In this document: piece by piece, positions 1-54,996 of the stretch
Layout: each line of letters opens with the position of its first letter
Position numbering within the stretch: position 1 is the first letter of the stretch
From: a virus
Taxonomy: Duplodnaviria; Caudoviricetes
Virus record (IMG/VR): IMGVR_UViG_3300037424_001001
Location: 1 to 54,996 of that record
DNA: 54,996 bases
Strand: one strand, 5' to 3'
The notes under the pieces: generated by a model
What the model was told of the DNA's origin: nothing
Databases searched by the model: none
What the model saw: the letters and a program-made list of their open reading frames with translations, nothing else
Program-made: the position numbers and the translations under genes

Positions 1-217
1 TCCCCTGTTCTGCGGCCTGTCGCCTAAGGTCGTTTAGCCTCGGGTCTTCATCTATAAGGCCTAAGGCGATCAAGGTCGAAAAAGGTGAAAGCTTGTTGCG
101 AACATCGGCGCAAAAATCAGATAACCCGTCAATTAAGAGGGAATTGCTACCGCCTGTGGTTCCCGAAGTGTACGTGGTATCAACATCCTTCAGCACAGTG
201 CATCTTTTCGTTTTCAT
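1..217 (-). CDS. Hypothetical protein, partial (starts inside attC1, runs off the left end)
   Basis: ATG at 217 preceded by AAGGGG. The frame MKTKRCTVLKDVDTTYTSGTTGGSNSLLIDGLSDFCADVRNKLSPF... is open to position 1. Confidence 0.45.
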   Translation of the reverse strand, partial: MKTKRCTVLKDVDTTYTSGTTGGSNSLLIDGLSDFCADVRNKLSPFSTLIALGLIDEDPRLNDLRRQAAEQG

Positions 218-250
218 AATCCGCAATCCCCTTATCTCTGATCGTTATCT
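119..250 (+). other. attC site 1 (132 bp)
   Basis: R'' AGATAAC 119-125; arms TAAGAGGGAATTGC / GCAATCCCCTTA; R' GTTATCT 244-250. Confidence 0.8.
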
Positions 251-544
251 GAGTAATGACGGATGGTAGTCGTCGCCGTAAATTTCCTTCGCTGCCTGTT
301 CTCTAGCGGAGCGCATTTCTTCTCGGCTTGCGTCTCTCCGACATGCCCACAGATGCCCAAATTTCTCTTCCATTAATTCCACGGCTCGGGCCTCCATCTG
401 AGCACACATATCATCGCTCTCGGAAAATCCCTCGTATAGTGGTTGTATTCGGGAATCTAGCCGGAAAAAATCATTCAAAATTTCTTCCGGCATATTGGCC
501 GCAGCCAAGATTAATGCTACCTCCATGCAATCATTTTTATTCAT
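245..544 (-). CDS. Cassette hypothetical protein (99 aa)
   Basis: GGAG SD between R'' and the ATG; TAA stop lies in R' GTTATCT. Confidence 0.8.
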   Translation of the reverse strand: MNKNDCMEVALILAAANMPEEILNDFFRLDSRIQPLYEGFSESDDMCAQMEARAVELMEEKFGHLWACRRDASREEMRSAREQAAKEIYGDDYHPSLLR

Positions 545-558
545 GGTGTCTCCAAATC

Positions 559-662
559 AGATAACAATGGGTTCGAGCCGACGTTCAACTTTCGTGTGAC
601 CCTGAAAAACTCGGTGGTCGGCCAGCGTCCCGTCGCGCTGGCTCAACCCTGATCCGGTAGAC
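559..662 (+). other. attC site 2 (104 bp), R' mutated (GGTAGAC)
   Basis: R'' AGATAAC; L'' GTTCGAGC vs L' GCTCAAC (extra C on the left arm); R' is GGTAGAC instead of GTTAGAC. Confidence 0.8.
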
Positions 663-878
663 GCAAGCTTTTTGCTCGCACCAGTTGAGGTCGAAATTTC
701 TCATGGCCTTGTCCGGCGTATCGCCGAACCCGGCAACGCCCTCTTGTAGATTCTCGCCATAGAGGGCGCACCACTGGTTACCGTCAACAAACAACCGTGG
801 TCGCAACAACAGGGATGGGGCGCTTTGGTCGCAGGCGTTGGCATACATCTGATTCCAATAATCTTGCTCGCAGGCCAT
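585..878 (-). CDS. Cassette hypothetical protein (DGNQWCALYGENLQEG motif), C-terminus extended into attC2
   Basis: SD GGAG. The expected TAA in R' reads TAC, so the ORF continues into attC2. Confidence 0.8.
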   Translation of the reverse strand: MACEQDYWNQMYANACDQSAPSLLLRPRLFVDGNQWCALYGENLQEGVAGFGDTPDKAMRNFDLNWCEQKACVYRIRVEPARRDAGRPPSFSGSHES

Positions 879-897
879 ATTCTCTCCTAAGATTTGC

Positions 898-985
898 GTC
901 TAACCCAAGATTTCAAGCCGGACGGAATAAAGGGTTTCCCTTCGATTCGGCGGCACACCGCCGCCGCTTAAATCTACCGTTAGGC
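898..985 (+). other. attC site 3 (88 bp)
   Basis: R'' GTCTAAC; L'' TTTCAAGC vs L' GCTTAAA; R' GTTAGGC. Confidence 0.9.
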
Positions 986-1159
986 GCTTCGATTACCACC
1001 AGTTTTGTCAATAACGATTGGGTCGTTGTGCTGCATGAGTAGCCTCCTGAAATGTTCTTGGTTGGTATATTCCGCGTCCGGGTCTATCCCATTGCGTAGA
1101 AAAAATAGGTCTTCAAGTTGCATTCCTGCTGCTTCTTCGTGGGCTTCTCTGTTGGTCAT
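980..1159 (-). CDS. Cassette hypothetical protein (59 aa, MTNREAHEE...)
   Basis: Start re-called to ATG 1159 with SD GGAG; stop in R'. Confidence 0.7.
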   Translation of the reverse strand: MTNREAHEEAAGMQLEDLFFLRNGIDPDAEYTNQEHFRRLLMQHNDPIVIDKTGGNRSA

Positions 1160-1180
1160 ATTCTCCACCTTGGTAAAATC

Positions 1181-1283
1181 GCCTAACAATAAAATAAACA
1201 CGGACTGAACACAGTCAGTGTTGCCCCGAATGGGGCGGTAGTTCGCCAGTAGCACGTCGCAGCCGGTTATTTTGGCGTTATGC
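1181..1283 (+). other. attC site 4 (103 bp)
   Basis: R'' GCCTAAC; arms AATAAACACGGACTG / CAGCCGGTTATT; R' GTTATGC. Confidence 0.88.
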
Positions 1284-1628
1284 CTTTTTTGCTCTGGCCT
1301 CTTGCAAATAGCGCGCATGGCTTCCGTACGTTTGCGCCACCCCTTCGCAATGGCTTTGCAGAGACCGCAACGCACGAGCAAGAGTCTCCCCCTCGGCTCT
1401 AGCCAGCCACTTCGCTTTTTTACCAAAACCGGCGCTTTTCACTTCGTAAACAGCTATTTCAAGCGGCTTTTCTCGGCGCTCAATCATCAACGTTGAAAGC
1501 CGATTGAACCCGCTCGACTGAATCCCCGTTGCCGACAAATATACTTCTGGATTGCCGGATTTATGGATTGTCCAGGTGTAGCCTGGCATGACCTTCTCTA
1601 ACTCTTTTCTGAATTCTGCTGAGTTCAT
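1278..1628 (-). CDS. Cassette hypothetical protein (116 aa)
   Basis: ORF fills the cassette and stops in R'. The flanks GTTATGCCTT / AAGGCATAAC are a 10-bp complement. Confidence 0.8.
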   Translation of the reverse strand: MNSAEFRKELEKVMPGYTWTIHKSGNPEVYLSATGIQSSGFNRLSTLMIERREKPLEIAVYEVKSAGFGKKAKWLARAEGETLARALRSLQSHCEGVAQTYGSHARYLQEARAKKA

Positions 1629-1653
1629 GACTTTTCCCTTTCTACCTCCGAAG

Positions 1654-1758
1654 GCATAACCATAAAATGCAGTCGGACCGAATAGTGCTTTGCTACTCTC
1701 GAAAATTTCAGCGGGTTTCCGTCAGTTCGTCGCGGTCCGCTGATCAAATGCGTTAGGC
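1654..1758 (+). other. attC site 5 (105 bp)
   Basis: R'' GCATAAC; arms ATGCAGTCGGACCG / CGGTCCGCTGAT; R' GTTAGGC. Confidence 0.9.
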
Positions 1759-1962
1759 ATCTGAAATAATGGCGTGGAGCCAATCATTTATGTCGCTCAT
1801 TCGGTCACAAAGCTCTCTGCATTTCTGTATTTGTGCATCCGCTCCGACTTCCCCCCTTTCTTTCAGCCGAGCAAACAGCCGCTCTAGGTCATCAATATCA
1901 CCAACACACTCGTTCAATAGTCTTTTAGATTCTTCCGCAGCCCTTTTGACAAGCATTGCCAT
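1753..1962 (-). CDS. Cassette hypothetical helical protein (69 aa, MAMLVKRAAEE...)
   Basis: Start re-called to 1962 with SD GAGGAG; stop in R'. Confidence 0.75.
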   Translation of the reverse strand: MAMLVKRAAEESKRLLNECVGDIDDLERLFARLKERGEVGADAQIQKCRELCDRMSDINDWLHAIISDA

Positions 1963-1985
1963 GTAAACTCTCCTCTGTGGTAAAT

Positions 1986-2072
1986 GCCTAACCACTAAAA
2001 TGAAGGCGGACGGTGAGCCACTGGTGTTATTACCTGCGCTCTACCGCCGCCGCTTATTTTTGACCGTTATGT
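1986..2072 (+). other. attC site 6 (87 bp)
   Basis: R'' GCCTAAC; arms AATGAAGGCGGACGG / CCGCCGCTTATT; R' GTTATGT. Confidence 0.88.
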
Positions 2073-2348
2073 GAAAGAAACATCCCCGTCCCAAACGAGT
2101 TTTTGGGGTTTGAATTGGGGGTTTAGCCACCGGTTGATATTTTCGCGGATCTTGCCGCCGTCGACAAATTCGGCATCTTCCGGTGCGACAAACTCGGCTT
2201 CGTAGTAGTAGCGGTTACCGGCATTTCGTCCGCAGGGTCTACGTAAAATCCGCGTCGGTTCCAACGTCACAGATTTAACTAGGTTTTGATATGAGTTGGC
2301 GGAGACATACTTCCGATCCTTTGTTGCATACGCAATGTTCAATTTCAT
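2067..2348 (-). CDS. Cassette hypothetical protein (93 aa, MKLNIAYATK...)
   Basis: Start re-called to 2348 with SD GGAGG; stop in R'. Confidence 0.75.
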   Translation of the reverse strand: MKLNIAYATKDRKYVSANSYQNLVKSVTLEPTRILRRPCGRNAGNRYYYEAEFVAPEDAEFVDGGKIRENINRWLNPQFKPQKLVWDGDVSFT

Positions 2349-2365
2349 TTCTGCCTCCGTGAAAC

Positions 2366-2470
2366 ACATAACCAAAAAATTAACGGGACCGAATACGCTA
2401 TTAGCTTCCCCACAATGGGGCGCTGCTCCCCGGGCCGTCCCGTCGCGGTCCCGTTATCATGGCGTTAGGC
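2366..2470 (+). other. attC site 7 (105 bp)
   Basis: R'' ACATAAC; arms TAACGGGACCG / CGGTCCCGTTA; R' GTTAGGC. Confidence 0.88.
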
Positions 2471-2598
2471 TACAAAATAGTGCGCCTCAGCAGCAAGAAC
2501 CACTCTGCAACGCTGCGCCCCGTGAAAAATATAATTGCGATTCGTACCGACTCAGACACCATCGCACCGACAAAAAACCAAGCAATCCCGCTTTTCAT
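2470..2598 (-). CDS. Small hydrophobic protein (42 aa), second gene of a two-gene cassette
   Basis: MKSGIAWFFVGAMVSESVRIAIIFFTGRSVAEWFLLLRRTIL; ATGA overlap with the upstream stop; its TAG abuts R'. Confidence 0.55.
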   Translation of the reverse strand: MKSGIAWFFVGAMVSESVRIAIIFFTGRSVAEWFLLLRRTIL

Positions 2599-2861
2599 TT
2601 GTGCGCCTTTTTGAAAATCACGCTGCAACCGTCGTTACGCCTTAACGTCCTACCGTCCGGAGTTTCAACCTCAAACGGCATGCACCGATGTTTTTCGCCA
2701 GAGCAATCTTTCCGCCAGTCACAAGCTCGGCAAATATTTCCGCCGTCTCTTGGCTTCGCATCGCTCTTTAGTTCCGCGAAATACCCCGGTGGCGCTTCTC
2801 GGGGGTCTATCCTCGGTTCGGTGTTTTCTGTAAATAGCGTCAACTGCATCTCCGTCTCCAT
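2595..2861 (-). CDS. Cassette Cys-rich hypothetical protein (88 aa)
   Basis: CRACDW...C...C motif; ORF lies within the cassette. Confidence 0.75.
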   Translation of the reverse strand: METEMQLTLFTENTEPRIDPREAPPGYFAELKSDAKPRDGGNICRACDWRKDCSGEKHRCMPFEVETPDGRTLRRNDGCSVIFKKAHK

Positions 2862-2876
2862 TTTTCACCTAAAAAC

Positions 2877-2983
2877 GCCTAACCAAAAGATGCAGGCGGA
2901 CCGAAATAGGGCTCTGCTGGTCTCGAAAATCTCAGCGGGTTGCGTCTACTCGCGTCGCGGTCCGCTGATCAAAAGCGTTAGGC
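2877..2983 (+). other. attC site 8 (107 bp), close relative of attC5
   Basis: R'' GCCTAAC; arms GATGCAGGCGGACCG / CGGTCCGCTGATC; R' GTTAGGC. Confidence 0.9.
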
Positions 2984-3568
2984 TCTCATGGGCATCAACA
3001 TCCCGTCACCATCGTCCCACTTGAAATAGTTGCCCTTTTCCGGCTCAGTCGGCGCCAGTTTCATCCCGGGCAACTCTTTCAGCATGGTGAGATAATGAGA
3101 CGAAAATCCGGTGCATCCAATTGCGATTCTCTTCGTCACAATCTTCCTTCCCGTTCCGATACAGCTTGAGCAAATTGTGGCATTGCCAGAAACGGAGCCA
3201 TCACCACCGCACGTCTGGCACTCGCACTCATATTCGTTGTAGTCATTTTCCAGCATAACCTCGCCGTCGCCGTCACACTCCGGACACTTTGAAGTTTTGC
3301 CGACCCCTTTGCAAACAGTGCAGGTTTCTGGTTCCGGCTGGGGAAAATCGGGTATTCCAGCCAGTGCGGCGACAATATCTGGACCAACACCGTCAAACAT
3401 GACGGCGGCTTTTTCATTCAAGGCGTCCCACTCCGGCACGTCGGCCAGCCGTGGCACTCTCACCAAAACATGACCATTGGTGGCGTACGAGTAGAGGCCA
3501 AACGAGAAGGGGCCGCACATCTTCGGGTGTTCTGGCTGAGAAAAGACGCTAAGTTTTTCTTGGTTCAT
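2978..3568 (-). CDS. Cassette protein with DnaJ-type CxxCxGxG zinc finger and beta-clamp-like motifs
   Basis: Four CxxCxGxG repeats; ATNGH, FSSHYL and C-terminal LMPMR motifs; stop in R'. Confidence 0.75.
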   Translation of the reverse strand: MNQEKLSVFSQPEHPKMCGPFSFGLYSYATNGHVLVRVPRLADVPEWDALNEKAAVMFDGVGPDIVAALAGIPDFPQPEPETCTVCKGVGKTSKCPECDGDGEVMLENDYNEYECECQTCGGDGSVSGNATICSSCIGTGRKIVTKRIAIGCTGFSSHYLTMLKELPGMKLAPTEPEKGNYFKWDDGDGMLMPMRA

Positions 3569-3590
3569 CGCTATGTCCTCCGTGATAAGA

Positions 3591-3695
3591 GCCTAACCAT
3601 ACGATCAAGCGGGACTGGCTCAACATGGGCGGTTCTCGATAAGGGCATCTGGTCGCAGCCATTCTGCGCCAGCCCCTTATCTCTGATCGTTAGAT
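3591..3695 (+). other. attC site 9 (105 bp)
   Basis: R'' GCCTAAC; arms GATCAAGCGGGACTGGC / GCCAGCCCCTTATC (VCR-like arms); R' GTTAGAT. Confidence 0.9.
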
Positions 3696-3923
3696 GCCCT
3701 GAATATCGGAAACATCGATCCATCTCTCTGCCTTGCTAAACAGATTGATGATTTTCACTCCACGTCCGGAGACACACAAAACCTCAGCATTGTCACACGC
3801 CTTCATGTTGCCCTTTTTGAAAACGATGACACTCCCAACGGTTAATGTGGCTGCAAGCATTTTCTCGGCTGTTCGTTCCACTTCGCGGGCCATCTTAAAT
3901 TGGGTCTTAATGTTATTGAGCAT
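3690..3923 (-). CDS. Cassette hypothetical protein (77 aa)
   Basis: SD AAGGAG; stop in R'. Confidence 0.75.
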   Translation of the reverse strand: MLNNIKTQFKMAREVERTAEKMLAATLTVGSVIVFKKGNMKACDNAEVLCVSGRGVKIINLFSKAERWIDVSDIQGI

Positions 3924-3944
3924 TTCGTTTCTCCTTGGCGTAGC

Positions 3945-4049
3945 ATCTAACCATCCAATTCAGCGAACGGAATTGGCTTGACTGCTCCTCGTTAAAATCT
4001 CGTTGATCCTCGCCCGGCCCGTCGCCGTGCGCTGATCGGGGCGTTTTCA
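3945..4049 (+). other. attC site 10 (terminal, R' = GTTTTCA)
   Basis: R'' ATCTAAC; L'' AATTCAGC vs L' GCTGATC; only the GTT of R' is conserved. Confidence 0.8.
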
Positions 4050-4292
4050 ATCCTCGGGGACAAAGACAAGGCGGGCGATCCGACACTTGCCGTAGGTGCC
4101 TTCGATGTACGCCTTTCGCTTCAAAATATCCGTCAAGTTTGCACTTTTGACGTACTGCTCAAAGACAAGGGGGCCACCGTCATCGTGAAACACCCTTCCT
4201 GCGATGTCCACAGGGCGGTCATTCTCTGCGACAACAACATAAATTTCATTCTCTGACCAGTGGTGCGTTGCCTCCTCCTTTTCTGCTTGGGT
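4047..4292 (-). pseudogene. 81-codon open frame lacking an N-terminal ATG, in frame behind the rusA stop
   Basis: TQAEKEEATHHWSENEIYVVVAENDRPV...RLVFVPED* directly follows the TAA at 4293-4295. Confidence 0.4.
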
Positions 4293-4691
4293 TTATTCCT
4301 CGAACGGGTGAATTTCCATGATGATGTGCGAATTGCCGGGGCTGATCCCTCCCCACCGGAAGTTCGTTCCGGCGATGATCTTCTTGTGGTCCTCCTTCAG
4401 CACCTTATACTCGACCAGGGCATCACAGGCGAACTTATCGGCAACCGAAAGGATGTTGTTGGTATCAAGCTGCCGGTTGTTTTCCCAAAACAGGCGATAG
4501 GTCAGCAGGTAGGGGGGCGGGAACGGGATCACTAGGCCGCGGTATTGAAGCATCTGCTCCTTGAAGGCGATCTTGGCCTTGTTGAGAACCTGGAAGTGAG
4601 CGGTTCGGTACGCGTTCAGGTTGACCCGGAATTCCTTCTTGGCCGAAACCCATACGACAATCGGAAGTTTCAGGCGAATCACGCTATCCAT
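4293..4691 (-). CDS. rusA: RusA-like Holliday junction resolvase
   Basis: LDTNN...DAL...EDH acidic motifs; size and position in the recombination module. Confidence 0.7.
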   Translation of the reverse strand: MDSVIRLKLPIVVWVSAKKEFRVNLNAYRTAHFQVLNKAKIAFKEQMLQYRGLVIPFPPPYLLTYRLFWENNRQLDTNNILSVADKFACDALVEYKVLKEDHKKIIAGTNFRWGGISPGNSHIIMEIHPFEE

Positions 4692-5113
4692 GCCGCGCCC
4701 CCCTCGTCAGTAAGGACCTGGATGCAGAAGATACCGAAGGCGGGGCACATCAGCGCGCCGGGGAGAAGGGGGGTAATGGCTCCGGCCTGGCTCAAGATTG
4801 CGATCTCCCCCATGGTCAGGCTTCGCGGCTGGCCGTAGTTCTCGCTCTCTTTCCCGGAAAGGATCGATTGCCAGTCCTCCGGGGCCTGCTCACCGTCGAT
4901 TCTGTCACCGACGGTCTTGCATGTGTCGCACAGAACCGGGGGCAACTTCCTTCTCCTTTCGTCGACATCGACCATAACGGTAGCCTCGCAGCCACATTTG
5001 AGGCAATATGTCGGCGCCTCCCGTAGCCAGTCCTTCGCCTTCGATTCCAGTTTCGGCATTGCCTCTACCCTCCCTTTCATAAAAAAGAATCCCTCCGAAT
5101 ATTGCACCTTCAC
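4679..5113 (-). CDS. Hypothetical protein with CxxC pairs
   Basis: Co-oriented ORF; start uncertain. Confidence 0.6.
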   Translation of the reverse strand: MKVQYSEGFFFMKGRVEAMPKLESKAKDWLREAPTYCLKCGCEATVMVDVDERRRKLPPVLCDTCKTVGDRIDGEQAPEDWQSILSGKESENYGQPRSLTMGEIAILSQAGAITPLLPGALMCPAFGIFCIQVLTDEGGAAWIA

Positions 5114-5172
5114 ATTTTCAATCGATGGCCGGGACCGATTGCCCCGGCCACCTCAGAAAATATCAAGAGCGG

Positions 5173-5907
5173 TTAGTTGATGGTAAAGGTGGGATTCTCC
5201 CGAAGACAAACTTCTTCATGTTTCAGGATAGCGGCCCGGATCTCCCGCTTCAGGGTCTTCTTGTCGCACCCCATGGCGTCCAGGTCAAACTTGACGCTGG
5301 TCATGATCTCGTCGGTGATCTGTGCCGAGATCGTTGCCGGGTCAGGCGTTCCGACCGTGGCGCCGGTTTCGTCCCTTTCGACGGTGACGATGTAGGGATA
5401 GGGTGTCGTGAAACCGGCCAGCGTCAACGACCCGGCGACATCCCGGACTTCACCGAGAGCTTCGAGAAGGTCGACATACCGCGTCACGGTAAAGACCTCG
5501 ATGTCCTTGGCCTCTCCTTCCGGGGCGAGAGCATCGACGGTTTCCTGCTCGTCGAGATTCAACTGACGCTCCCAGGGGTGGATTTTCTCGATTTCCACCG
5601 TCTCGTAGCTGTCGAGCCGGACCAGGCGTTTCTCGTTGCGGTCCCAGTCGTAGTGCCATTGGCAGTCGACGGGACGAGACTCGCGCCCTTCCCGGATTCT
5701 TGCGGCGAGATCCCCGGCGGTGGCGTCCTTGGCGTCGATCCTGCCCTTGAACTGCTTCTTGATCGTGTCGATCTCCAGTTCCAGATTGGTCTTGTCTTTC
5801 AACTCCTGCGCCAGTTTCTCGCCATAGTGCTGCTTTTCCTCGTTGGTCAAAACCACCAGTAATTCACGATTTTCGATCCCTCGAAGGGCCTGCTTGATGC
5901 CGCTCAT
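5173..5907 (-). CDS. Hypothetical phage protein (244 aa)
   Basis: SD AAGGA; typical codon usage. Confidence 0.75.
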   Translation of the reverse strand: MSGIKQALRGIENRELLVVLTNEEKQHYGEKLAQELKDKTNLELEIDTIKKQFKGRIDAKDATAGDLAARIREGRESRPVDCQWHYDWDRNEKRLVRLDSYETVEIEKIHPWERQLNLDEQETVDALAPEGEAKDIEVFTVTRYVDLLEALGEVRDVAGSLTLAGFTTPYPYIVTVERDETGATVGTPDPATISAQITDEIMTSVKFDLDAMGCDKKTLKREIRAAILKHEEVCLRENPTFTIN

Positions 5908-5937
5908 ATACTCTGTCCTTTCCTGTAACGTAGGTTG

Positions 5938-6795
5938 TTAACGGAAGTGCGAAGTCGTCGTGTCATCGACCCGGCACCCGAACTGCTCCAGATTCATACC
6001 CGCCTCGGCCAGCCCCTTGAGGATTTTGGCAACGCCTTCGACGGCTCCCGGGGGGATGATGCCATCGGCAACACCGCGGCACAGGGCCTTGATGTCGACG
6101 ACCTCGACGGTAACGGTCCTGCGCCCGACGACGCCCTTGGTCTTTGCTGCAGGCGGTGCCGCAGGTGCCGCAACCGGGGGAGGAGGCGCAGCGGCCCGAC
6201 GCTCGGCCTCCCGGCGCAGGTCTTCGGCGCGCTTCTGGTGACCGGCAATCTTCGCCTCGAGGATGGAGATCTGCGACCGCATCAGACTGGCCTCTTCGTC
6301 GCTCGTCTCGGGAGCTTCGAGTTGATCCCGCAGTTCGGCCAGGTGGGCAGAGTCGTCGCCGGCCTTGGCGAGAATGGCGCCGACCTTGCGCTCGGCAGCG
6401 GCAATGCGCTTGGCCTGCTCTTTTCTGGCCTCCTCGGCGGCGAGGCGTCTTTCTTCTTCCTCCCGGCGCTTCTCGGCCAGCAGGAAGACGTTGGCCGTGT
6501 CGGTGACAATTGTTTTCGCCTCGCCGAGCGGGTCGAGGACCTTCTTCTCCTGGGCGACGGCGATCTTGTGGGCGGCAAAGGCGGCGTCCTTGATCGGCTT
6601 GTGGTGCTCCTGCACGAACTTTATCCGCTCGTTGAGTTGTCTCACGAAATCCCGGGCAACCTCCAACATGGGGATGGTGGAGATCTGCAGGGCCCTTGCC
6701 TGGTCGACAATCGTCAAGGCCACCTGCTCCTGAAGCGGCTGCTCCTCGGGCAGGGCCGGCAGTACGATGGTTTTTCCCTCCGTGGTCTTTTTCAT
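5938..6795 (-). CDS. Coiled-coil phage protein (285 aa)
   Basis: SD GAGGAG; Glu/Ala/Arg-rich helices. Confidence 0.75.
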   Translation of the reverse strand: MKKTTEGKTIVLPALPEEQPLQEQVALTIVDQARALQISTIPMLEVARDFVRQLNERIKFVQEHHKPIKDAAFAAHKIAVAQEKKVLDPLGEAKTIVTDTANVFLLAEKRREEEERRLAAEEARKEQAKRIAAAERKVGAILAKAGDDSAHLAELRDQLEAPETSDEEASLMRSQISILEAKIAGHQKRAEDLRREAERRAAAPPPPVAAPAAPPAAKTKGVVGRRTVTVEVVDIKALCRGVADGIIPPGAVEGVAKILKGLAEAGMNLEQFGCRVDDTTTSHFR

Positions 6796-6829
6796 TCTGT
6801 CTATCTCCTCTTGCGGTTAAGTGTGCGGG

Positions 6830-7120
6830 TCAGGCCGGATCGATCGAGATGATCTTGTCGACGGTGATGGACCTCCAGCCGTTGGCCTCCGTGTCGAAGG
6901 CGGCAAACAGGTGGTCGGGCGTCGGGCGTCCGGGCCGGTCGGTTTCGTCCTTGTCCTGCGGCCGGAACTCCTCCGGGATGGTTTCCGGGTCTCTGGTGCA
7001 AAGCATGGTTCGGATCGTCCCGTCCTTTTTCTCGAAAACAACCTTGACCTTCTTGGCCGACGAGAAGTGTCCGGCGATTTCTTCCCGGGAGAACTTCTTT
7101 TTCTCCTCTTTTTCTTCCAT
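6830..7120 (-). CDS. WYL_2/SH3 beta-barrel protein
   Basis: VVFEKKDGTIRTMLCT...FDTEANGWRSI motif; start re-called with SD AAGGAG. Confidence 0.7.
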   Translation of the reverse strand: MEEKEEKKKFSREEIAGHFSSAKKVKVVFEKKDGTIRTMLCTRDPETIPEEFRPQDKDETDRPGRPTPDHLFAAFDTEANGWRSITVDKIISIDPA

Positions 7121-7142
7121 GGTGCGCTCCTTCCTCTCTGCC

Positions 7143-7778
7143 CTACAGGGCTTGGTGAAAATTGTGATTGAACAGCCTGCTCTGGAAATAATCCCAATCG
7201 CTTCCATTGTCGAGCGGGGTAAACTTGTAGGGGCCTTCCCCTTTCTTCGGCAGGCGCAGCTTGTAGCGGTTGATCAGCTTGCGCTCTCCTGTCTCCTCCC
7301 TGAATCCGACCTCATAGGCGGAGGTCTGCGGCCCGGTCAGGGTGCCGATACCTGTTTTAACGTCGACCAGTGCTAGGCGCTTGATCATCGGAAGGTAGGC
7401 CAGAATGTCCAGCGTTCCGGCATATCCGTATTTGGTGCTGCAAACCCGCTTCTCTACGGCGACGATCTCGGGCTTGTAGTCGGCCTGCCATTGCACCAGG
7501 GCCCGGACGCTGCTTTCAATGGCCTCGGGGTAGAAGATGGCATCAATACCATGGAGGAGTGCGAGTTCCATGACCTTATGCACGGCGCGCCCGTAGTCGC
7601 CTGCGGCTTCAACCGCATCGGCCGCCATGGCCTGCCCGGTGATGGTGTTGATGTAGAATGACAGATTTCCCCACTCCACCTTGATCAATTCCTTGAGGAT
7701 GCCAGTCACGCCAGGGATCGGGGCGCCGCGATAGCGGTAGGTATGACTGGCTTCGTCGAAGGTCAGTCCGTCTCTCAT
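7143..7778 (-). CDS. PD-(D/E)XK exonuclease (Cas4/lambda-exo-like)
   Basis: G..VH, E, YAGTLD, VDVKTG and Q..AY motifs. Confidence 0.8.
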   Translation of the reverse strand: MRDGLTFDEASHTYRYRGAPIPGVTGILKELIKVEWGNLSFYINTITGQAMAADAVEAAGDYGRAVHKVMELALLHGIDAIFYPEAIESSVRALVQWQADYKPEIVAVEKRVCSTKYGYAGTLDILAYLPMIKRLALVDVKTGIGTLTGPQTSAYEVGFREETGERKLINRYKLRLPKKGEGPYKFTPLDNGSDWDYFQSRLFNHNFHQAL

Positions 7779-8008
7779 GCTGCAGACTCCCGGCTGTTTT
7801 TTATCTCGACCAGCTTATCAATGGCCTTAATCCAGGTTGACGCCGTAACGTACGGATAGCCATGACAATAGACGAGGTGCTGATATTCAACGTTCCCGAG
7901 AAAGTCTTCCGTGATCTCCACCCTGATAGAGTGGTGTTCCCCTTTGGAAAACGCCTTGACCCGGCGCTTGGCCTCGCCGATGGAAATATCCCTCCCCTTT
8001 CTGCCCAT
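7775..8008 (-). CDS. Hypothetical protein (77 aa)
   Basis: SD GGAGG; ATGA coupling. Confidence 0.65.
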   Translation of the reverse strand: MGRKGRDISIGEAKRRVKAFSKGEHHSIRVEITEDFLGNVEYQHLVYCHGYPYVTASTWIKAIDKLVEIKNSRESAA

Positions 8009-8010
8009 GG

Positions 8011-8481
8011 TTATTTGCCTCCCTTGCGCCGGGCCAGTTCCCCGGTGAATGACGTTTCCTTGGGCTTGTCATAAGTCCCCGTCCCTGCGCAGTCCTTGCA
8101 GCGATCCGGAAGAATCTGGTACGCCATGCGGGCGACCCACCCCGTTCCTCCACACCGGCAGCAGACCCCGGGACGTGTGGCAATGAACAGCCAGCCGAGG
8201 GGCATCCGATCAACGATCTTGCGCGGCAACTGCCTGGCGATATCCCCGCGGTGCGCGCACAGCCCGAAGTGATTGGTGCGGGCAATCTCCCCGGAGAGCT
8301 CCACCCCGCCGAACGACTCCGAGTAAAAGGCCATGCACTCGATAACGCTTTCCTTGGGCCAGTCGGCATGAACGCGGATGTTGTTGACCTGGTGAAAGGT
8401 TCGCACCATGCCTTTGCTGTCGACGTTCAGCAGGCCGATGGCCTGCTCCATAGGGACGACAATGCGCTTCTCACCGGCCAT
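8011..8481 (-). CDS. Hypothetical protein with C-terminal CxxCxGxG zinc finger
   Basis: CCRCGGTG and CKDCAGTG. Confidence 0.65.
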   Translation of the reverse strand: MAGEKRIVVPMEQAIGLLNVDSKGMVRTFHQVNNIRVHADWPKESVIECMAFYSESFGGVELSGEIARTNHFGLCAHRGDIARQLPRKIVDRMPLGWLFIATRPGVCCRCGGTGWVARMAYQILPDRCKDCAGTGTYDKPKETSFTGELARRKGGK

Positions 8482-8483
8482 GA

Positions 8484-9434
8484 CTATCGGCCCTCCTTGT
8501 CGAGATATGCCTTCAGGTCGGCCAGCAGATCGACGGCTTCCGCATCGAACATACCGCGGATATCGTCGACGGTCATCTTGCGTTTGGCAATGATCGTCAG
8601 CAGGGCGTTCATTTCCCCTTCGACGCCGCCGCAGATGTGACCGAGGGTTTCCAGCAGGGCGTCCATGGGGGACGCCGTGTCGAACGGGGCTTGCTGATTC
8701 TGCTCGGGTTGCGGTTTCGGTTCCGGGTCCGGCGCCTTGCTTGCCGCCTTCGCCCGGGGTTTCGGCTCCGGCTTGGCCTGCGGCTTGAGGCCGACCTGCG
8801 CCTCGAGCGTTTCCGCCGGGGGCGTGACATCCACCATTCCCCTGGGCCCCACGTCAACCAGTTCGTCGACGGTCTGCATACCGAGGAGCCGTTCCGGGCA
8901 ATGGAGACGACCAAAGAAGGTGGCGGCTCGATAAGCAAACATGATAGCCGGCATGGTCTTCCACTTGCTGCCTTCCTTACTCAACCACCCTTCCTTTTCC
9001 ACCATGCCCCATTCGACCCATGGACCATAGACGGTCTTGCCAGAGGACTTGCGCACCGCAAAGGCGCGGACCTTGTAGTCCTTCCTGTGTGCATCTTCGC
9101 CGACAACCTCGTAGTCGAGAGAGTCGACAAAGAGTCCGCTGGAGTTGATCAGTGTGATGGCCAGCTTGGCCTCAATCCCCGGCTTGCCGTGAACGATGTA
9201 GCTGTTCTGCAGAAAGGGGAGGATGGCGACATCCATGCGCATCGCCATTTCGATAGAGATCATGCAGTTCTCGGGCTTTCCCTGGAACTGCTTCGGCACC
9301 AGTTCGCTCTTGGCAAAGAGCGTGGCAATCCGCCAGAGGTGGTCGAACCGTGCCGAGTCCATGAAGTTCGCGAAAGCTCCATCGTCAACGATGATGGCCT
9401 TCTGGTCCTGTTTTGCGAGATTCTTTTCCGTCAT
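8484..9434 (-). CDS. RecT-like single-strand annealing protein
   Basis: VPKQFQGKPENC...QNSYIVHGKP...SKWKTMP...CPE.LLG pattern; lies near the exonuclease. Confidence 0.75.
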   Translation of the reverse strand: MTEKNLAKQDQKAIIVDDGAFANFMDSARFDHLWRIATLFAKSELVPKQFQGKPENCMISIEMAMRMDVAILPFLQNSYIVHGKPGIEAKLAITLINSSGLFVDSLDYEVVGEDAHRKDYKVRAFAVRKSSGKTVYGPWVEWGMVEKEGWLSKEGSKWKTMPAIMFAYRAATFFGRLHCPERLLGMQTVDELVDVGPRGMVDVTPPAETLEAQVGLKPQAKPEPKPRAKAASKAPDPEPKPQPEQNQQAPFDTASPMDALLETLGHICGGVEGEMNALLTIIAKRKMTVDDIRGMFDAEAVDLLADLKAYLDKEGR

Positions 9435-9676: not shown

Positions 9677-9705
9677 ACTATAGTTACAGGGAATAACTGT
9701 GTCAA
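9677..9705 (-). promoter_or_regulatory. Sigma70 promoter of the leftward early operon, overlapped by a palindromic operator
   Basis: TTGACA-17 bp-TATAGT; perfect palindrome GTAACTATAGTTAC at 9674-9687. Confidence 0.8.
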
Positions 9706-9718: not shown

Positions 9719-9754
9719 AAAAAAGGCCCCCGACGAAATAACGTCGGGGGCCTT
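9719..9754 (-). terminator. Intrinsic terminator after the lysis genes
   Basis: 13-bp stem AAGGCCCCCGACG / CGTCGGGGGCCTT with a U-tract on the minus strand. Confidence 0.85.
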
Positions 9755-9838
9755 CCTGTTCGTGCCCACGGAGGGGAGGTGCAGACTCGAAACAGAAGAT
9801 TCATTTAACCACCTGGCCGGTGGGTTCGCAACCCTTTT

Positions 9839-11027: not shown

Positions 11028-14000
11028 CTAAAACGCGGCGCCGTATCGCTCGACGGCCAGTTTTTGCAGCCGATTCCGTTCGGCGTTGAGCTTGTCGACG
11101 CGGGACTGTTTCTCTTCCCGGGTCAGTTCCCTTGAGCTCCACACCAGGCGAATCCGGTTATTGATGTCCTGCAAACGCTTCTGCACTGCGGCCAGTTGAG
11201 GACGGGCCCGGAGCTTGGCCAGGTTCTCTCTGAGCATCGTGTCGGCGTCCTCCTTGCGTCCCCGCTTGCGATACTCCTTGATGGTGCTGTAGATCTTGGC
11301 CGTTTCGACGGTCATCTCGTAGAACTCGTTGCTGTACTTGGTGCTCCGCGGACTGTCCTCCCGCACAAAACGATTCAGCACAGGAATGTCCTGGACGCTC
11401 CCGGCGGGGATCTCCTCGGCGAGTCCTGTTTTTCTTAAAATAGCATCGGAGGCCATCAGGGCGTAGGTCGAAACCGCCGACGTATAGCCGTAGAGAAGAT
11501 GTCCTAGCCGCTTGGGACTGCGCAGGAAGGCCGGGGCGCTGTCGGGCATACCCTCGGCCAGCAGTCGGAGGCTTTCGCTTGTCCAGGGGTCATACTGGGC
11601 TTCAGGCTCCAACCGTTGGAGCCGTTGCGAGACAATCGGAGAGTCGGAGAAGAACGATTTGTTGGCCACTTCCTCGACGATGGGCTTGAACAATTGCGGA
11701 ATTGGATTGAAGGCGAATGTGTCGAGGAACATTTGCACCATGCGATTGACGAACATATCCCCTTCTTTTTCCCGGATCAGCTCCATCATCCGCTCGGGAA
11801 TGGTGGAGAATATCGCGCCGACTTCAAAGGGCTTGGGCATCCGGAAGTGACCGAAGGGGGTGAAGAAGTGCCAGTAGAGATCCTTGTCCCACTCGGGGAG
11901 GTCTTCGTAATCGGGATTGCCCATATTGATTGCGTAAAGCGCCAGGGTTGCGCCCGTCAGCATCAGCCCCTTGAGGGCAAAAGAGCGGGGGTTTTCCTTG
12001 ACACCGCGGTAAAGCCGGTCGAGGCCCTGAATCCTTGCATTCAAGAAAGGAACCGTCTGCACCATGAAGCGCATGACCGCGTAATCACCTGAGCGGGTGA
12101 AGTTGAGCGTATCCATGGCCTGGTAAGCGGCTTCGCCGATACTGCCCCCGGCTTTCAGGGTCTTGTCGAAGACCACCATGCGGTTTGCCGACTCGGTTGC
12201 GGCGCCGATCTTCTGGTAAAAACGCCATGCCTTGCGGGGGGAGTGCAGGACCGTATCCTTGAAGCGGGTCGACTCCATCGCCTTGACCTGATCGGCGATC
12301 ATATCCCGAGCCCCTTCTTTGCGCACATGATAGTACCCGCCGCCGCCGGCTCCGGCCGCCATCATGGCCATCAGCTTCTCGTCCTTGCCGAGGGCATTGA
12401 TGAATTCCTTGCCAGCATGAAGAAAGGGAATCATGTTGGTGTCCGTGACCACCCATGTCGAGAGGGTATCCCGGAGGAAGTTGGCCATCATGAAGGCCGG
12501 GTTGACGGTGACCGAATGGGTCAGGAGCTTCTTGGCCCCCTTCATCAGGGTCAGCATCCCGTCGGTTGTGGTCGGGCCCATGGCCGTCATGGAGCGCAGG
12601 AGCAGCGGATCATGCACCCGGAAATAGCGGGGCTTGCCGCCGGAGAGGACGGTGATCACGTCCGGGCCCTGCGGCGCCCACCGGGCAAGGAGCTTGCTCC
12701 AGGCGCTCAGTTCGCTGTCCATGAATTCACCGACGCCCAGGTGTCCGATCTCCGCCACGTTGCCCCAGCTTGTTTCGTTGTCGGGGAGAATGCCCGAGGC
12801 TTCGAGGGCCTTGCGGATCATGCTGTTCGGGACCATGACCGGCTTCCACGTTTTGCTGATCTCCTCGATGGCGCCTGTTCCCTCGGCCATGTCGACGATC
12901 CGCTGTGCTGCGATGTTTTTGAAGGAAGAATCGATCAGCTTGGCGGCGTTGAGAAGCATGTTCTCCATGACGTTGATCTTGCCGGCGCCGCCCTTGAGCC
13001 GCATGATTCCGCTTTTCTGGTTGGCGAGGCCGCGTTTCTTGAACGGGCCCTTGACGTTCTCCGCACCCTGGATGTCTTCGACCACCCGGTAAAAAGGCAC
13101 ATAGTCGTTCTTCGACCATTCGGCCCGGGCTTCTCCGTCGATAACGCCCGTTGCTTCGGCCAGGTCGAGGATCTTGTTGTTAAAGGTCTGGTACTCGTCA
13201 AAGATTTGACGGAAGAGCGGGTATTGCTGTTCGAGCGGGAGGAGAGCGTCAATCTGATCCTGGGTGAAATTGTTCTCCCGGCCTTCTTTGATCAGGCGAT
13301 TGGCGCGCACCGCTGCGGCCCATCCTTCCCACAGGCGCAAAAGGTTCCCGTCGGCGTGATTGGTCAGCGGGGCGAAGATGTCGGCAAAGCCTTTCCCGCT
13401 CTTGGCGTTTTCCAGATGGAAAGATCCGTTGCGGAAGAGCAGGGCGCCGCGGAGCATGACCGCGGCCATAACCGAATCGAGGTTTCTCGTCAGTCGGGCG
13501 GCCTTGCTCGGGGAGATTGAGGCGTCCATCACCTGCCCGAAAGTGTCCTCCTCGTAGCTTTCGATGGATGCAAAATCATCCATCATCCCCTGCCGTACCG
13601 CCAGAGGGTCCACCCTGGCCGTGAAGTTGTACAATATCGTTTTGGCGCGCTCCGCCCAGGTCATATCCGCCGAGGGAGTTGCCATGGTGGCGGCCAGGGC
13701 GGCTTCCTGTTCGGGGGTGCCGGTGGCGCGCTTGCGTTGAAAGGTCGGATAAACGCCCGGGGTCATGCCGGATTTTTTGAAGGCGTCAGGAGCCGTGACG
13801 GACATCTCCCTGTAGCTGCCTTCGACGGCGCCGGGTTCGACGTATTGGGAGAACTGCGTCTCCTGCGACCCGAGTACGCCGTCATACCCTTCCTGCTCCG
13901 CCTCCCGCTTGAAGGCTTCGATAGCACCTTCCGGCGTCGCGGCCCCCGAAAGGTCAGTGCCGACCCATCGCTGCCCGTTGAAGATAAGAAATCCGCCGTC

Positions 14001-44052: not shown

Positions 44053-44226
44053 ATGGGCAGAGAAGTAGACGAGTGGATGACGATTCCGATCCGAAAAGAT
44101 TTGCACCGCGCAATGAAACAGAAGGCTCTCGATGAAGGCAAGAAACTGATTCATTTGATGGATGAGGTTCTTGTTGATGCGTTGAATTTCAAGGAGGTCA
44201 GAAGTGGCAAGAATCAGGACAATTAA
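44053..44226 (+). CDS. Ribbon-helix-helix (Arc/CopG-like) regulator, 57 aa
   Basis: SD AAGGAGGT; TIPIRKDLHRAMKQKALDEGKKLIHLMDEVL. Confidence 0.7.
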   Translation: MGREVDEWMTIPIRKDLHRAMKQKALDEGKKLIHLMDEVLVDALNFKEVRSGKNQDN

Positions 44227-44968
44227 ACCGGAGTTTTGGACCTCGGAGGAAATCATGGAGATTTCCAGGGATGCCAGACTGTTGTTTATTGGTCTCTGGA
44301 ATTTCTCGGACGACGGAGGAAATCATCCGGCCAGTGAGAAGACGCTGAAGGCGGAAATCTTTCCCGCCGACGAGGATATAAATTCGTCGACCATTCGACG
44401 AATGATCGACGAACTGTCGACGAATGGTCTGATCGTCACCTACGAATCGCCCGAAGGTAAAATGTACTGGCATGTTACCGGATGGAAACACCAGAAGATA
44501 GATAAGCCAAATGTCAAATATCCGACATACATCCCGGGAACGGAAATTCAACCAGTTAGATATGAATTCGACGAGCGTTCGTCGAATGATCGTCGAATGA
44601 TCGTCGACGAGTCGTCGAAAGGTCGACTACCATTCACCCCCGTAAGGGAAGGGAAGGGAAGGGATATAGAAGGGAAAGACCTTAACCTAGGGGGGGAGGA
44701 TGTAATTAACAACGAAGGGCTGCAGCATTTCAAAAAACTCCATCTCGACACCTGCGGACTTGCAACCGTCCCCCCCCTCAAAATCATTCAGGCGATTCTG
44801 GACAAAGGCACAGACCCGCAGCGGATCGAGGATGTCTACCAACTCTGCGGCGGAGATCATCAGCGATATCGACAACGAAACATTACCGAACGGCTGCAGT
44901 CCTTGAGGGACGAGGTGTTCATTGACCTGGATATCAGCGAATTCACACCGGAGTGGGTGCCAACATGA
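44204..44968 (+). CDS. Phage replication initiator
   Basis: MARIRTIKPEFW...ARLLFIGLW...DD.G...W.HQKI.KP. Confidence 0.8.
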   Translation: MARIRTIKPEFWTSEEIMEISRDARLLFIGLWNFSDDGGNHPASEKTLKAEIFPADEDINSSTIRRMIDELSTNGLIVTYESPEGKMYWHVTGWKHQKIDKPNVKYPTYIPGTEIQPVRYEFDERSSNDRRMIVDESSKGRLPFTPVREGKGRDIEGKDLNLGGEDVINNEGLQHFKKLHLDTCGLATVPPLKIIQAILDKGTDPQRIEDVYQLCGGDHQRYRQRNITERLQSLRDEVFIDLDISEFTPEWVPT

Positions 44969-45474: not shown

Positions 45475-45475
45475 T

Positions 45476-46414: not shown

Positions 46415-46418
46415 GTGA
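45594..46418 (+). CDS. Alternative-frame MTase partner chain (WPTP repeats, motif IX-like)
   Basis: 274-aa open +1 frame with SD; two GWPTP repeats; [18 protein letters not shown]. Confidence 0.65.
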
Positions 46419-46666
46419 TGAAAACAAAAAGCATCCCGACCAATAATCTCGGCCAGAACATGGCCCGAATTCGCAAGGAAGAGCGGTTGTCCACCGACGG
46501 CATGGCCTACCTTTGCGGGGTGTCGCGGATGACCATCTACAACATCGAGGCAGGCATCAAGGGGACGACGGTCCCCCTGCTTCTTAAAATCTGCACCATC
46601 CTGGAGAGGTCCCCAAACGAGCTTTTGGGATGGCCGGAAACGCCGACAGTCGACGCCCAAATTTGA
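46415..46666 (+). CDS. XRE-family HTH regulator
   Basis: IRKE..LS...MA...GVSR.TI..IE.G. Confidence 0.85.
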
Positions 46667-47704: not shown

Positions 47705-47716
47705 TCTTTTCTACTC

Positions 47717-47742
47717 GCCCGGGCCCTTCGGCCCGGGCTTTC
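47717..47742 (+). terminator. GC hairpin between convergent operons
   Basis: GCCCGGGCC-CTTC-GGCCCGGGC-TTT. Confidence 0.6.
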
Positions 47743-54643: not shown

Positions 54644-54851
54644 TGTCTACCTCCTTGCATTTACCGGCGCAAACGACCATCAGGCGCTTCTTGTCCAGAC
54701 TACGAATCAAAAAGTCCTTGCTGCCGTTCCTGATCGAGTTGAATGTGGCACGATGTTCCCAAGTTTCCCCGCGGAATTTCACCTTGACCATCAGTACCCC
54801 CTGGGTGACAAATTGCGCTGATATGACGGCAACCGTACTATCAGATATCAC
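54615..54851 (-). CDS. Hypothetical protein
   Basis: Co-oriented ORF; start uncertain. Confidence 0.5.
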   Translation of the reverse strand: MISDSTVAVISAQFVTQGVLMVKVKFRGETWEHRATFNSIRNGSKDFLIRSLDKKRLMVVCAGKCKEVDSDIKDKENP

Positions 54852-54870
54852 GGTTGCCGTCTATTCCCTG

Positions 54871-54996
54871 TTAGGGTGATTCGGGGCCTTTCAGCCGCTC
54901 GTACAATTCCAGCCAGGCAAAGACAATCGGCGGTGGCCTGCGAGCGTTTTTCGTCCCCTCGGCTTCCCACCCTTGCCAGGTCGCGTAAGGGGTGCC
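54871..54996 (-). CDS. HTH (XRE-like) protein, partial
   Basis: GTPYATWQGWE...RRPP; runs off the right end. Confidence 0.55.
   Translation of the reverse strand, partial: GTPYATWQGWEAEGTKNARRPPPIVFAWLELYERLKGPESP

What the first reader, a model, noticed from the sequence alone, without database searches (positions are those of the whole stretch)
119..4049. A phage carries its accessory genes as an integron-type attC cassette array
Seen: ten attC-like sites at 119, 559, 898, 1181, 1654, 1986, 2366, 2877, 3591 and 3945, each 87-132 bp with R''/L''/L'/R' boxes. All nine complete cassettes start with an R' complementary to their own R'', often beyond 7 bp (GTTATGCCTT/AAGGCATAAC, GTTAGGCTCT/AGAGCCTAAC, GTTAGATGC/GCATCTAAC); one carries a single mismatch. 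The R'' and R' within one assembled site usually mismatch. Known: this is the signature of cassettes assembled by IntI recombination at G|TT, and integrons are normally described from chromosomes, plasmids and transposons. Inference: the phage uses cassette recombination, probably with a host IntI because none is in the window, to gain, lose and reorder small early genes. The cargo looks like phage genes rather than typical bacterial cassette genes.
Basis: partly seen in the sequence, partly recalled or inferred. Interest (0 to 1): 0.95.

Follow-up and report, generated by a model that had tools for sequence, protein, structure and literature searches.

The report
Mirror-image integron cassettes in a phage
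This sediment phage keeps ten small genes between integron-type DNA hairpin sites, all facing the opposite way to bacterial integron genes, and three of these units recur in other DNA with edges at the predicted cut point, likely moved by an integron integrase such as those that other phages with the same hairpins encode themselves.

Summary
Confirmed: ten attC sites at 119-4049 in a podovirus-like phage contig (93% complete, no tyrosine recombinase). (1) Polarity: every attC top strand is +, while the cargo genes lie on -, in line with the phage early operon. Bacterial and published phage arrays scored the same way are sense. (2) Enzyme: other phage contigs carry near-identical attC sites (96-99% in one) next to their own full-length intI and a conserved attI-like site, with the same reversed cargo. 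Cassettes 0, 3 and 8 recur elsewhere with edges at G|TT. The contig's right end holds another cassette junction without intI, so the contig is probably opened inside the array and the integrase is probably supplied in trans, by a phage or the host. Phage attC clusters are published (Qi 2023); nine paper searches found no description of the mirrored layout or of phage IntI clades. The scan noted this pattern before on other DNA (180 notes). The leftmost kilobase may come from a minority variant. No recombination was tested. New variant of a known kind.

The parts
1..244 (+). Cassette 0, cut by the contig end (about 63 bases missing); its ORF (- strand, 92 aa in L138) starts at 217 inside its own attC
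   Evidence: L138 holds the whole unit, 97.6% identical, starting at a G|TT complementary to R'' 119 and diverging at 249
119..250 (+). attC 0 (132 bp), top strand +, crossover G|TT at 244
   Evidence: CM E=0.0034
245..544 (-). Cassette 1 ORF, 99 aa, unknown function; stop codon in R'
   Evidence: no PHROG or NCBIfam hit, only a sub-cut-off Pfam match
559..662 (+). attC 1 (104 bp) with GGT instead of GTT at 656; predicted recombination-dead at this junction
   Evidence: the same letters stand in an X1 contig covering 220-699 with 0 differences; 89% relative in intI-bearing L066
585..878 (-). Cassette 2 ORF; 73 aa up to R', read on to 97 aa because the changed R' no longer holds a stop
   Evidence: 73-77-aa members in its cluster; 32-residue match (69%) to a gene in a plain operon of virus Blf4
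898..985 (+). attC 2 (88 bp), three extra bases on the R''-L'' arm, G|TT at 979
   Evidence: CM E=7e-7
980..1159 (-). Cassette 3 ORF, 59 aa; stop in R'
   Evidence: same unit in L022 from 978, 96%; contigs in X2, X3, X6 start at 978
1181..1283 (+). attC 3 (103 bp), G|TT at 1277
   Evidence: CM E=6e-4
1278..1628 (-). Cassette 4 ORF, 116 aa; stop in R'
1654..1758 (+). attC 4 (105 bp), G|TT at 1752
   Evidence: CM E=0.033; 80% relative in intI-bearing L007
1753..1962 (-). Cassette 5 ORF, 69 aa; stop in R'
   Evidence: contigs in X2, X3, X6 cover 1751/1752-2069, R' to R'
1986..2072 (+). attC 5 (87 bp), G|TT at 2066
   Evidence: CM E=5e-5
2067..2348 (-). Cassette 6 ORF, 93 aa; stop in R'
2366..2470 (+). 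attC 6 (105 bp), one extra base in L'', G|TT at 2464
   Evidence: 96% identical site in intI-bearing L018/L063
2595..2861 (-). Cassette 7 main ORF, 88 aa, Cys-rich; ends 131 bp before R' (a 52-aa frame at 2470-2628 follows)
   Evidence: 69% homolog is the cassette gene next to attI-intI in L066
2877..2983 (+). attC 7 (107 bp), G|TT at 2977
   Evidence: CM E=2.5e-4
2978..3568 (-). Cassette 8 ORF, 196 aa, CxxC zinc-finger-like (phrog_37414); stop in R'
   Evidence: unit 2976-3695 is 98-99% identical in L001 and L002 with other neighbours; nearest Atlas cluster 88% viruses
3591..3695 (+). attC 8 (105 bp), three extra bases, G|TT at 3689
   Evidence: CM E=1.3e-8; travels with the ORF on its left
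3690..3923 (-). Cassette 9 ORF, 77 aa; stop in R'
3945..4049 (+). attC 9 (105 bp), last site; G|TT at 4043 followed by a non-canonical R' that overlaps the stop of phage ORF 4047-4211 (likely the founding insertion point)
   Evidence: 99% identical site in intI-bearing L018/L063; X1 and X3 contigs run from 4016 into the backbone
4047..9434 (-). Phage early operon upstream of the cargo genes: RusA-like resolvase, WYL_2 protein, exonucleases, RecT-like annealing protein
9677..9705 (-). Sigma-70-type promoter match (11 of 12), just after a terminator at 9720-9757; likely drives the early operon and the cassette genes
   Evidence: consensus match only
54870..54996 (+). Further cassette junction G|TT at 54870 and the 3' part of a - strand HTH-type cassette gene, cut by the contig end; likely the attI-side end of the same array
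   Evidence: 12-bp R' identical to the junctions of the same cassette in L007 (after attI) and L003 (after attC); similarity starts at G|TT
54826..54862 (.). Perfect 12-bp inverted repeat just left of that junction; decayed attC, attI relic or operator
   Evidence: z -4.5; not hit by the phage attI profile or the attC model

Best explanation
This is an array of ten integron attC sites in a phage whose cargo genes lie on the strand opposite to the attC top strand and are likely transcribed from the phage's early promoter; the units are likely cut out and inserted at G|TT by an integron integrase that is absent from this contig and most likely comes from phages of the same cassette pool that encode their own IntI. 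Shown: sites, polarity, gene geometry (start 14-27 bp from R'', stop inside R'), cassette-precise sharing, and complete intI-attI-like-attC layouts with reversed cargo in other phage contigs. Inferred: the attC bottom strand folds when single-stranded and recombines by ordinary IntI chemistry. In complete phage integrons intI is the last gene of the operon, so new cassettes would enter at the promoter-far end. This phage or its ancestor would have founded the array by insertion at a GTT beside a phage stop codon (4043), and now depends on an integrase in trans. The reversed polarity would leave phage cassettes silent in host integrons and host cassettes silent in the phage array.
For: Polarity: extra bases lie on the arm carrying AAC on + in 10 of 10 sites, which defines the top strand (PMC5027507, passages); 7 of 7 CM hits at E<0.05 are on +; the shared unit in L001/L002 is the ORF plus the attC on its right. 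Controls: Holophaga array 24 sense, 4 anti, 1 none of 29, or 20/4/5 unclear without RBS weighting; published phage arrays 3 sense, 1 unclear of 4. Viral loci: 32 antisense, 12 unclear, 4 sense of 48 distinct cassettes in 19 of 132 loci; window 7 antisense, 2 unclear of 9. Mobility: cassettes 8, 3 and 0 recur with edges at G|TT; run X2 has no backbone cover at 4201-6000 yet holds single cassettes starting at R'. Phage IntI: 9 of 9 proteins tested pass the TIGR02249 cut-off (332-416 bits against 265), keep the R-H-R-H-Y residues and the IntI insertion, lie in contigs with terminase, portal or Gam genes, and have a conserved site whose TAAC lies 58-59 nt before the intI start. 6 of 10 window sites have 80-99% relatives in contigs with an intact or broken intI.
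Against: No recombination or transcript was measured. The contig has no intI (0 matches to PF00589 at E<=1) and no match to the phage attI profile, so the link to phage IntI is by shared sites and cargo only. Of ten other array-bearing contigs searched for TIGR02249 or PF00589 plus five, most are fragments; among them G007 (91% complete) has no tyrosine recombinase and G001 has a broken intI, so many arrays may simply be frozen. Host IntI can act on phage attC sites (PMC9892861). Unconstrained folding gives the full R-paired hairpin as minimum-energy form in only 4 of 10 bottom strands, z -0.5 to -2.7. The link between the two contig ends is inferred, not bridged (searches found nothing). 4 of 48 viral cassettes scored sense without RBS weighting.
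Confidence: 0.65

Rival explanations
1. The working enzyme is the host's chromosomal IntI; phage-encoded integrases play no part for this array.
For: No integrase in a 93%-complete contig; IntI1 recombines five of six phage attC sites tested (PMC9892861); one complete-looking array-bearing phage has no tyrosine recombinase (G007).
Against: An exact 20-letter pattern for the 119/3591 site family matched only 2 places in 185,579 prokaryote genomes, one outside any array and one in a sense array of another site family; no plasmid match; near-identical sites stand beside phage intI genes. Only one site family was tested in genomes and the host is unknown.
Confidence: 0.2
2. The phage has its own attI and intI in the roughly 4 kb that are missing, so it is a complete mirror-image integron.
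For: CheckV 93%, linear, cut inside cassette 0; other phages have intI exactly on this side of the array.
Against: The right contig end already shows a cassette junction in the same polarity followed by two short genes and a terminator, not intI; if both ends join, the gap lies within the array.
Confidence: 0.1
3. The sites are repeats shuffled by homologous recombination (the phage has a RecT-like annealing protein), not by an integrase.
For: RecT-like gene at 8484-9434; site families recur at high identity; run X1 holds a hybrid site joining 142 to 3652.
Against: In three phages the shared cassette 8 is preceded by three unlike attC sites and identity starts one base before G|TT; R'/R'' complementarity follows cassette, not site.
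Confidence: 0.03
4. Bases 1-4049 are host DNA or a misassembly joined to a phage.
For: G+C 0.51 against 0.59 in the adjoining operon; in X1 a contig at backbone depth has another 876-bp neighbour left of 976, and 220-699 has depth 10 against 34-41, so the leftmost kilobase may come from a minority variant or another phage.
Against: X1 pieces 976-2069, 2040-2457, 2884-3683 and a 28,388-bp contig from 4016 have 0 differences and depth 34-41 (only 28 letters of that contig lie left of the G|TT at 4043); cargo is antisense, unlike host arrays; the same design occurs inside many viral contigs.
Confidence: 0.02

Closest known systems
CALINs in phage genomes (Qi et al. 2023, PMC9892861; main text read, supplements not)
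   Same: Clusters of attC sites without intI in phages, small ORFs between them, sites shown there to recombine with IntI1.
   Different: The paper reports 17 CALINs and describes TJE1 and PH101 as typical bacterial-style arrays; TJE1's one scorable cassette is sense in my test. Here cargo is antisense, in line with the phage operon, and belongs to a pool shared with phages that encode IntI. The word 'opposite' does not occur in its main text.
Complete integrons in phages M16-3, Va_90-11-286_p16 and P1 (Qi et al. 2023)
   Same: intI, attI and attC array inside a phage record; intI opposite to the attC top strand.
   Different: Their cargo is opposite to intI, as in bacteria (14 of 14 whole CDS upstream in M16-3, 4 of 5 in p16), and the paper treats them as captured host integrons. 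The phage integrons found here have cargo and intI on one strand, and their IntIs are under 50% identical to those.
Sedentary chromosomal integrons (IntI, attI, Pc, attC)
   Same: attC anatomy (R''/L''/L'/R', one to three extra bases, 87-132 bp), crossover at G|TT, stop codon inside an R box.
   Different: Gene polarity reversed; stop lies in R' instead of R''; no Pc needed; mixed attC families rather than one.
SALINs and attG insertion (Loot et al., bioRxiv 10.1101/2022.09.11.507474; passages read)
   Same: IntI inserts cassettes at GWT sites outside att sites and they can be read from resident promoters; the last site here ends in a non-canonical R' beside a phage stop codon.
   Different: Described for bacterial genomes and sense cassettes; does not explain reversed cargo.
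Inverted-integrase integrons (Spirochaetota type; passages in PMC9668308 and PMC13323075)
   Same: intI and cargo genes on one strand.
   Different: There intI is flipped relative to attC and cargo stays sense; here intI versus attC is regular and the cargo is flipped.

Membership tests
attC site | R'' (RYYYAAC-like) and R' (GTTRRRY-like) core boxes, 57-141 bp apart | tested here: met
   10 of 10 have TAAC at R''; 8 of 10 have GTTA at R' (656 is GGT, 4043 is GTTT); 87-132 bp
attC site | Extra-helical bases on one arm, first one in L'' | tested here: met
   10 of 10 on the left arm of +; three-base pattern with 6-bp stem at 898, 1181, 1986, 3591 as described in PMC5027507
attC site | Match to an attC covariance model | tested here: inconclusive
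   Own model from 15 Holophaga sites: 7 of 10 at E<0.05, 1 at E=2, 2 missed; IntegronFinder's model not available
attC site | Bottom strand recombined by IntI | not testable with these tools
   Needs a recombination assay
integron gene cassette | Unit from G|TT to G|TT moves as a whole; R' complements own R'' | tested here: met
   8 of 9 at 7/7; cassettes 0, 3, 8 shared with edges at G|TT
integron gene cassette (canonical) | ORF on the attC top strand, read from Pc | tested here: not met
   RBS-led ORFs on - in all complete cassettes; RBS-blind test 7 antisense, 2 unclear, 0 sense of 9
complete integron | intI gene beside the array | tested here: not met
   0 PF00589 matches at E<=1 in the 93%-complete contig; about 4 kb unseen
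complete integron | attI site | tested here: inconclusive
   Profile of nine phage attI-like segments has no hit in the window; a junction with a hairpin lies at 54826-54876
CALIN | At least two attC sites, no neighbouring intI | tested here: met
   10 sites, no intI in the contig; subject to the missing part
IntI (for the related phage enzymes) | TIGR02249 above cut-off, catalytic residues and IntI insertion | tested here: met
   9 of 9 tested pass; invariant R138, H271, R274, H297, Y306 and the insertion in the alignment (residue roles recalled)

The most novel reading that the evidence does not exclude
Phages of several unrelated types run their own mirror-image integron system: dedicated IntI lineages expressed as the last gene of an early operon, an attI just before the intI ribosome site, and a phage-only pool of reversed cassettes that is shut off from host integrons by polarity and is made from ordinary phage accessory genes, offering a natural system in which to study how cassettes are born. 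This array is an integrase-less client of that system.
Probability: 0.4. Interest if true: 0.9.

Novelty: new variant of a known kind. Interest (0 to 1): 0.75.

Why it matters
Integrons are taught as bacterial devices whose strand choice exists to place genes in line with the Pc promoter. Here the same sites serve a phage with every gene reversed, and other phages carry their own integrases in that layout. If right, phages have adapted the integron as a gene-swapping device for their small early genes, which would explain part of phage mosaicism by a site-specific route. Reversed cassettes would be silent in host integrons, a testable barrier between two gene pools. Cargo families also occur in plain phage operons without attC, which makes the open question of how cassettes form approachable by comparison.

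Tried and rejected
Rfam: 0 matches in the window. No terminal repeat at the contig ends. No close relative of the phage backbone: RusA gave 1 locus at 40%, the 138-aa right-end protein none, TerL 80 loci with best 75%, none with an IntI hit and 5 with one to three scattered detector hits. A right-end pattern found nothing in metagenome contigs, so the two ends could not be bridged. Cargo function: no informative Pfam, PHROG, NCBIfam or PADLOC match except phrog_37414 and a sub-cut-off DnaJ-type zinc-finger match for cassette 8. No DNA match in plasmids; only a 74-bp match to virus Blf4 in cultured phages. The first folding script placed two R' boxes wrongly, and one search used G positions off by one for two sites; one search has the corrected values. 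A mixed alignment of Holophaga, Shewanella and Vibrio sites misaligned the arms and was dropped for a Holophaga-only model. Virus Rctr41k has intI in line with upstream genes but its three attC hits lie downstream and sense, so it is not a mirror array, and 'upstream genes in line with intI' alone is no proof. L081 is a canonical array (7 sense, 1 anti, 2 unclear). Gaps in contig cover were not used as evidence of absence for single cassettes. The IntI tree is a quick search with an unresolved backbone, so no claim is made on the number of origins. The host is not identified; one IntI cluster of the clade is labelled Geopsychrobacter, a weak hint only.

Full report
Setting. The window is a whole virus record of 54,996 bp, linear, 93% complete by CheckV, without terminal repeats. 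It encodes terminase subunits, an SU10-type portal and adaptors, a major head protein, a 4,776-aa DarB-like protein, an endolysin, and an early operon on the - strand (RecT-like protein, exonucleases, RusA) that runs toward the array (63 ORFs scanned). A sigma-70-type promoter match (11 of 12) at 9705-9677 heads this operon (consensus match only). No tyrosine recombinase is present (0 matches to PF00589 at E<=1). The 14 runs holding a share of 0.20 or more of the words are sediment or soil metagenomes.

All ten sites are found at the stated places by a detector that requires an unpaired base three letters into L''; 100 shuffles give at most 1 site. R' complements its own R'' at 7 of 7 bases in 8 of 9 cassettes, and only 2 of 362,880 re-pairings score as well. 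The one mismatch lies in the crossover triplet at 656 and also removes the stop codon of that cassette's ORF; an X1 contig carries the same letters. A covariance model from 15 chromosomal sites of a Holophaga genome, which has a full IntI, finds 7 of 10 sites at E<0.05 with exact ends, one at E=2, and misses two.

Polarity is reversed. Nivina et al. (PMC5027507, passages) place the extra-helical bases on the arm that carries AAC on the top strand. In all ten sites this arm is the left one on +. The ORFs with ribosome sites are on -, start 14-27 bp from R'' and in 7 of 9 cassettes stop inside R'; the ORF of cassette 0 starts inside its own attC. Natural variation agrees: the unit shared with L001 and L002 is the ORF plus the attC on its right, 98-99% identical, with three unlike sites on the left and identity ending just after the right G|TT. 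Controls scored the same way are sense: Holophaga 24 sense, 4 antisense, 1 none of 29, or 20, 4 and 5 unclear without ribosome-site weighting; TJE1, M16-3 and p16 give 3 sense and 1 unclear of 4. Viral loci give 32 antisense, 12 unclear and 4 sense of 48 distinct cassettes in 19 of 132 loci; with ribosome-site weighting on the earlier set, 35 antisense and 2 sense (five duplicate loci left out). These loci were fetched with this window's site patterns and an IntI fragment, so the counts are not a survey of phages.

Cassettes move. Cassette 3 recurs in L022 from 978 and cassette 0 in a metagenome contig, from its own G|TT to 249, with another neighbour. Of 4 runs laid, X2 has no cover over 4201-6000 but holds pieces 978-1157, 1752-2069, 2463-2911 and 2976-3636; X3 holds 2977-3689 inside a longer contig. 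In X1, possibly the source sample, pieces 976-2069, 2040-2457, 2884-3683 and a 28,388-bp contig from 4016 match without differences at depth 34-41. The piece from 976 has 876 other letters on its left, and 220-699 has depth 10. So the leftmost kilobase of the window may belong to a minority variant or be an assembly path through one. The join at the right end is covered by only 28 letters left of G|TT.

The enzyme. Searching five array-bearing records for TIGR02249 showed a broken intI in a 97%-complete phage (G001), between the array and the terminase genes, in line with the cargo. Its open frame retrieved 180 confirmed stretches in viral contigs, of which the best 80 were kept. All 9 full-length proteins tested pass the curated cut-off and the alignment keeps the catalytic residues and IntI insertion (roles recalled). 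Upstream of intI a conserved 60-bp segment follows a TAAC 58-59 nt before the start codon; in L058, L059, L063, L066 and L067 that TAAC box is matched by a 9-12-bp complementary R'' upstream, in L070 by only 6 bp. Of 49 distinct viral IntI rows, 31 have upstream genes in line with intI, 0 opposite and 18 undetermined by a crude count; 19 of the 31 also have an attC upstream on the other strand. One undetermined row (L081) is canonical. The closest enzymes form a clade of 22 rows (SH-aLRT 99, quick tree) and 37 clusters at 62-94% identity before a drop to 60% or less (8,000 candidates scored). Six of the window's ten sites have relatives in contigs with intact or broken intI: 96% and 99% in L018/L063, 89% in L066, 80% and 84% in L007, 86% in L006. 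Cassette 7's gene has a 69% homolog next to attI-intI in L066. By contrast one site-family pattern hit 2 places in 185,579 prokaryote genomes, neither an array of this family. Five further array contigs, 10-34% complete, had no IntI, nor did five searched for PF00589 apart from one distant phage integrase.

The other contig end. The last 127 bp hold the 3' part of an HTH-type gene on - whose homologs are cassette genes in L003 and L007, and the 12 letters from G|TT at 54870 are identical to the junctions there. In L007 this cassette follows attI-intI; in the window it follows a 12-bp hairpin, two short genes and a terminator. The simplest reading is a circular map opened inside the array, with no intI at its attI side. 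This link is inferred; two searches to bridge it found nothing.

Cargo. No function could be assigned. Cassette 8's nearest Atlas cluster is 88% viral, and homologs of cassettes 8 and 2 lie in plain operons without detectable attC in L068, L072 and virus Blf4. In 14 of 18 other loci the last detected site has no matching R'' within 1.6 kb to its right, and its R' usually closes a reading frame, which fits founding by insertion at a GTT beside a phage stop codon, as attG insertion would allow (bioRxiv 10.1101/2022.09.11.507474, passages).

Mechanism. Shown: anatomy, polarity, cassette-precise sharing, phage-encoded IntI in the same layout. Inferred: ordinary IntI chemistry on the folded bottom strand; expression of all cargo from the upstream phage promoter; entry of new cassettes at the promoter-far end; silence of these cassettes in host integrons; an integrase supplied in trans for this phage. 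I put 0.65 on the whole reading, 0.2 on host IntI alone, 0.1 on an own intI in the gap, 0.05 on homologous recombination or misassembly of the whole array.

Novelty. Qi et al. 2023 (PMC9892861; main text read, supplements not read) report 3 complete integrons and 17 CALINs in 10,705 phage genomes and recombination of five of six phage attC sites by IntI1; they do not describe reversed cargo. Known inverted-integrase integrons flip intI, not the cargo (PMC13323075 and PMC9668308, passages). Nine searches of an open-access library found no description of mirror arrays or phage IntI clades; subscription papers are mostly missing from it. A myxobacterial virus preprint was checked by passages and is not relevant. 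The scan's own notes report antisense arrays in at least 175 other genomes and phage integrons with the same layout; none concerns look-alikes of this stretch. I noted the polarity and the phage IntI before reading the respective notes; they are unchecked and are not used as support. Verdict: new variant of a known kind, interest 0.75.

Noticed in passing
L006:7391-7983 (G001): Phage intI whose first seven codons are followed, out of frame, by the C-terminal half: a decayed phage integron that still has attI and eight cassette units.
   Followed up: partly
L007:4690-5240: The HTH cassette carries two genes and an A+T-rich promoter-like stretch, and ends in a copy of the attI core instead of an attC.
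   Followed up: no
window 54826-54862: Perfect 12-bp inverted repeat 8 bp left of a cassette junction; phage attI-like sites also have a short inverted repeat near the junction.
   Followed up: partly
window 2369 joined to 1 (run X3, record 19): A contig joins cassette 6 to position 1 with about 43 letters between, too few for the rest of cassette 0 plus an attC; letters not shown.
   Followed up: no
window 142 joined to 3652 (run X1): A hybrid attC combining arms of the 119 and 3591 families with 37 other letters between; site families may exchange arms.
   Followed up: no
window 44204-48668: A + strand block with replication initiator, two overlapping methylase-like frames and an HTH regulator lies between terL and the portal gene, an unusual place.
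   Followed up: no
window 11028-25358: 4,776-aa DarB-like polyvalent protein with inorganic pyrophosphatase, GGDEF, helicase and LPD38 domains.
   Followed up: no
window 49189-51390: TerL is 733 aa; most relatives match only residues 1-470, and the C-terminal part matches separate PHROGs, suggesting an added domain.
   Followed up: no
L219 (virus Rctr41k) 4680-9433: GenBank phage with an IntI-like gene annotated as xerD and three attC-like sites downstream on the same strand with sense genes.
   Followed up: partly
L017:6697-14690: Four short units in the Holophaga chromosomal array scored antisense; they look like repeated gene-less cassettes.
   Followed up: no
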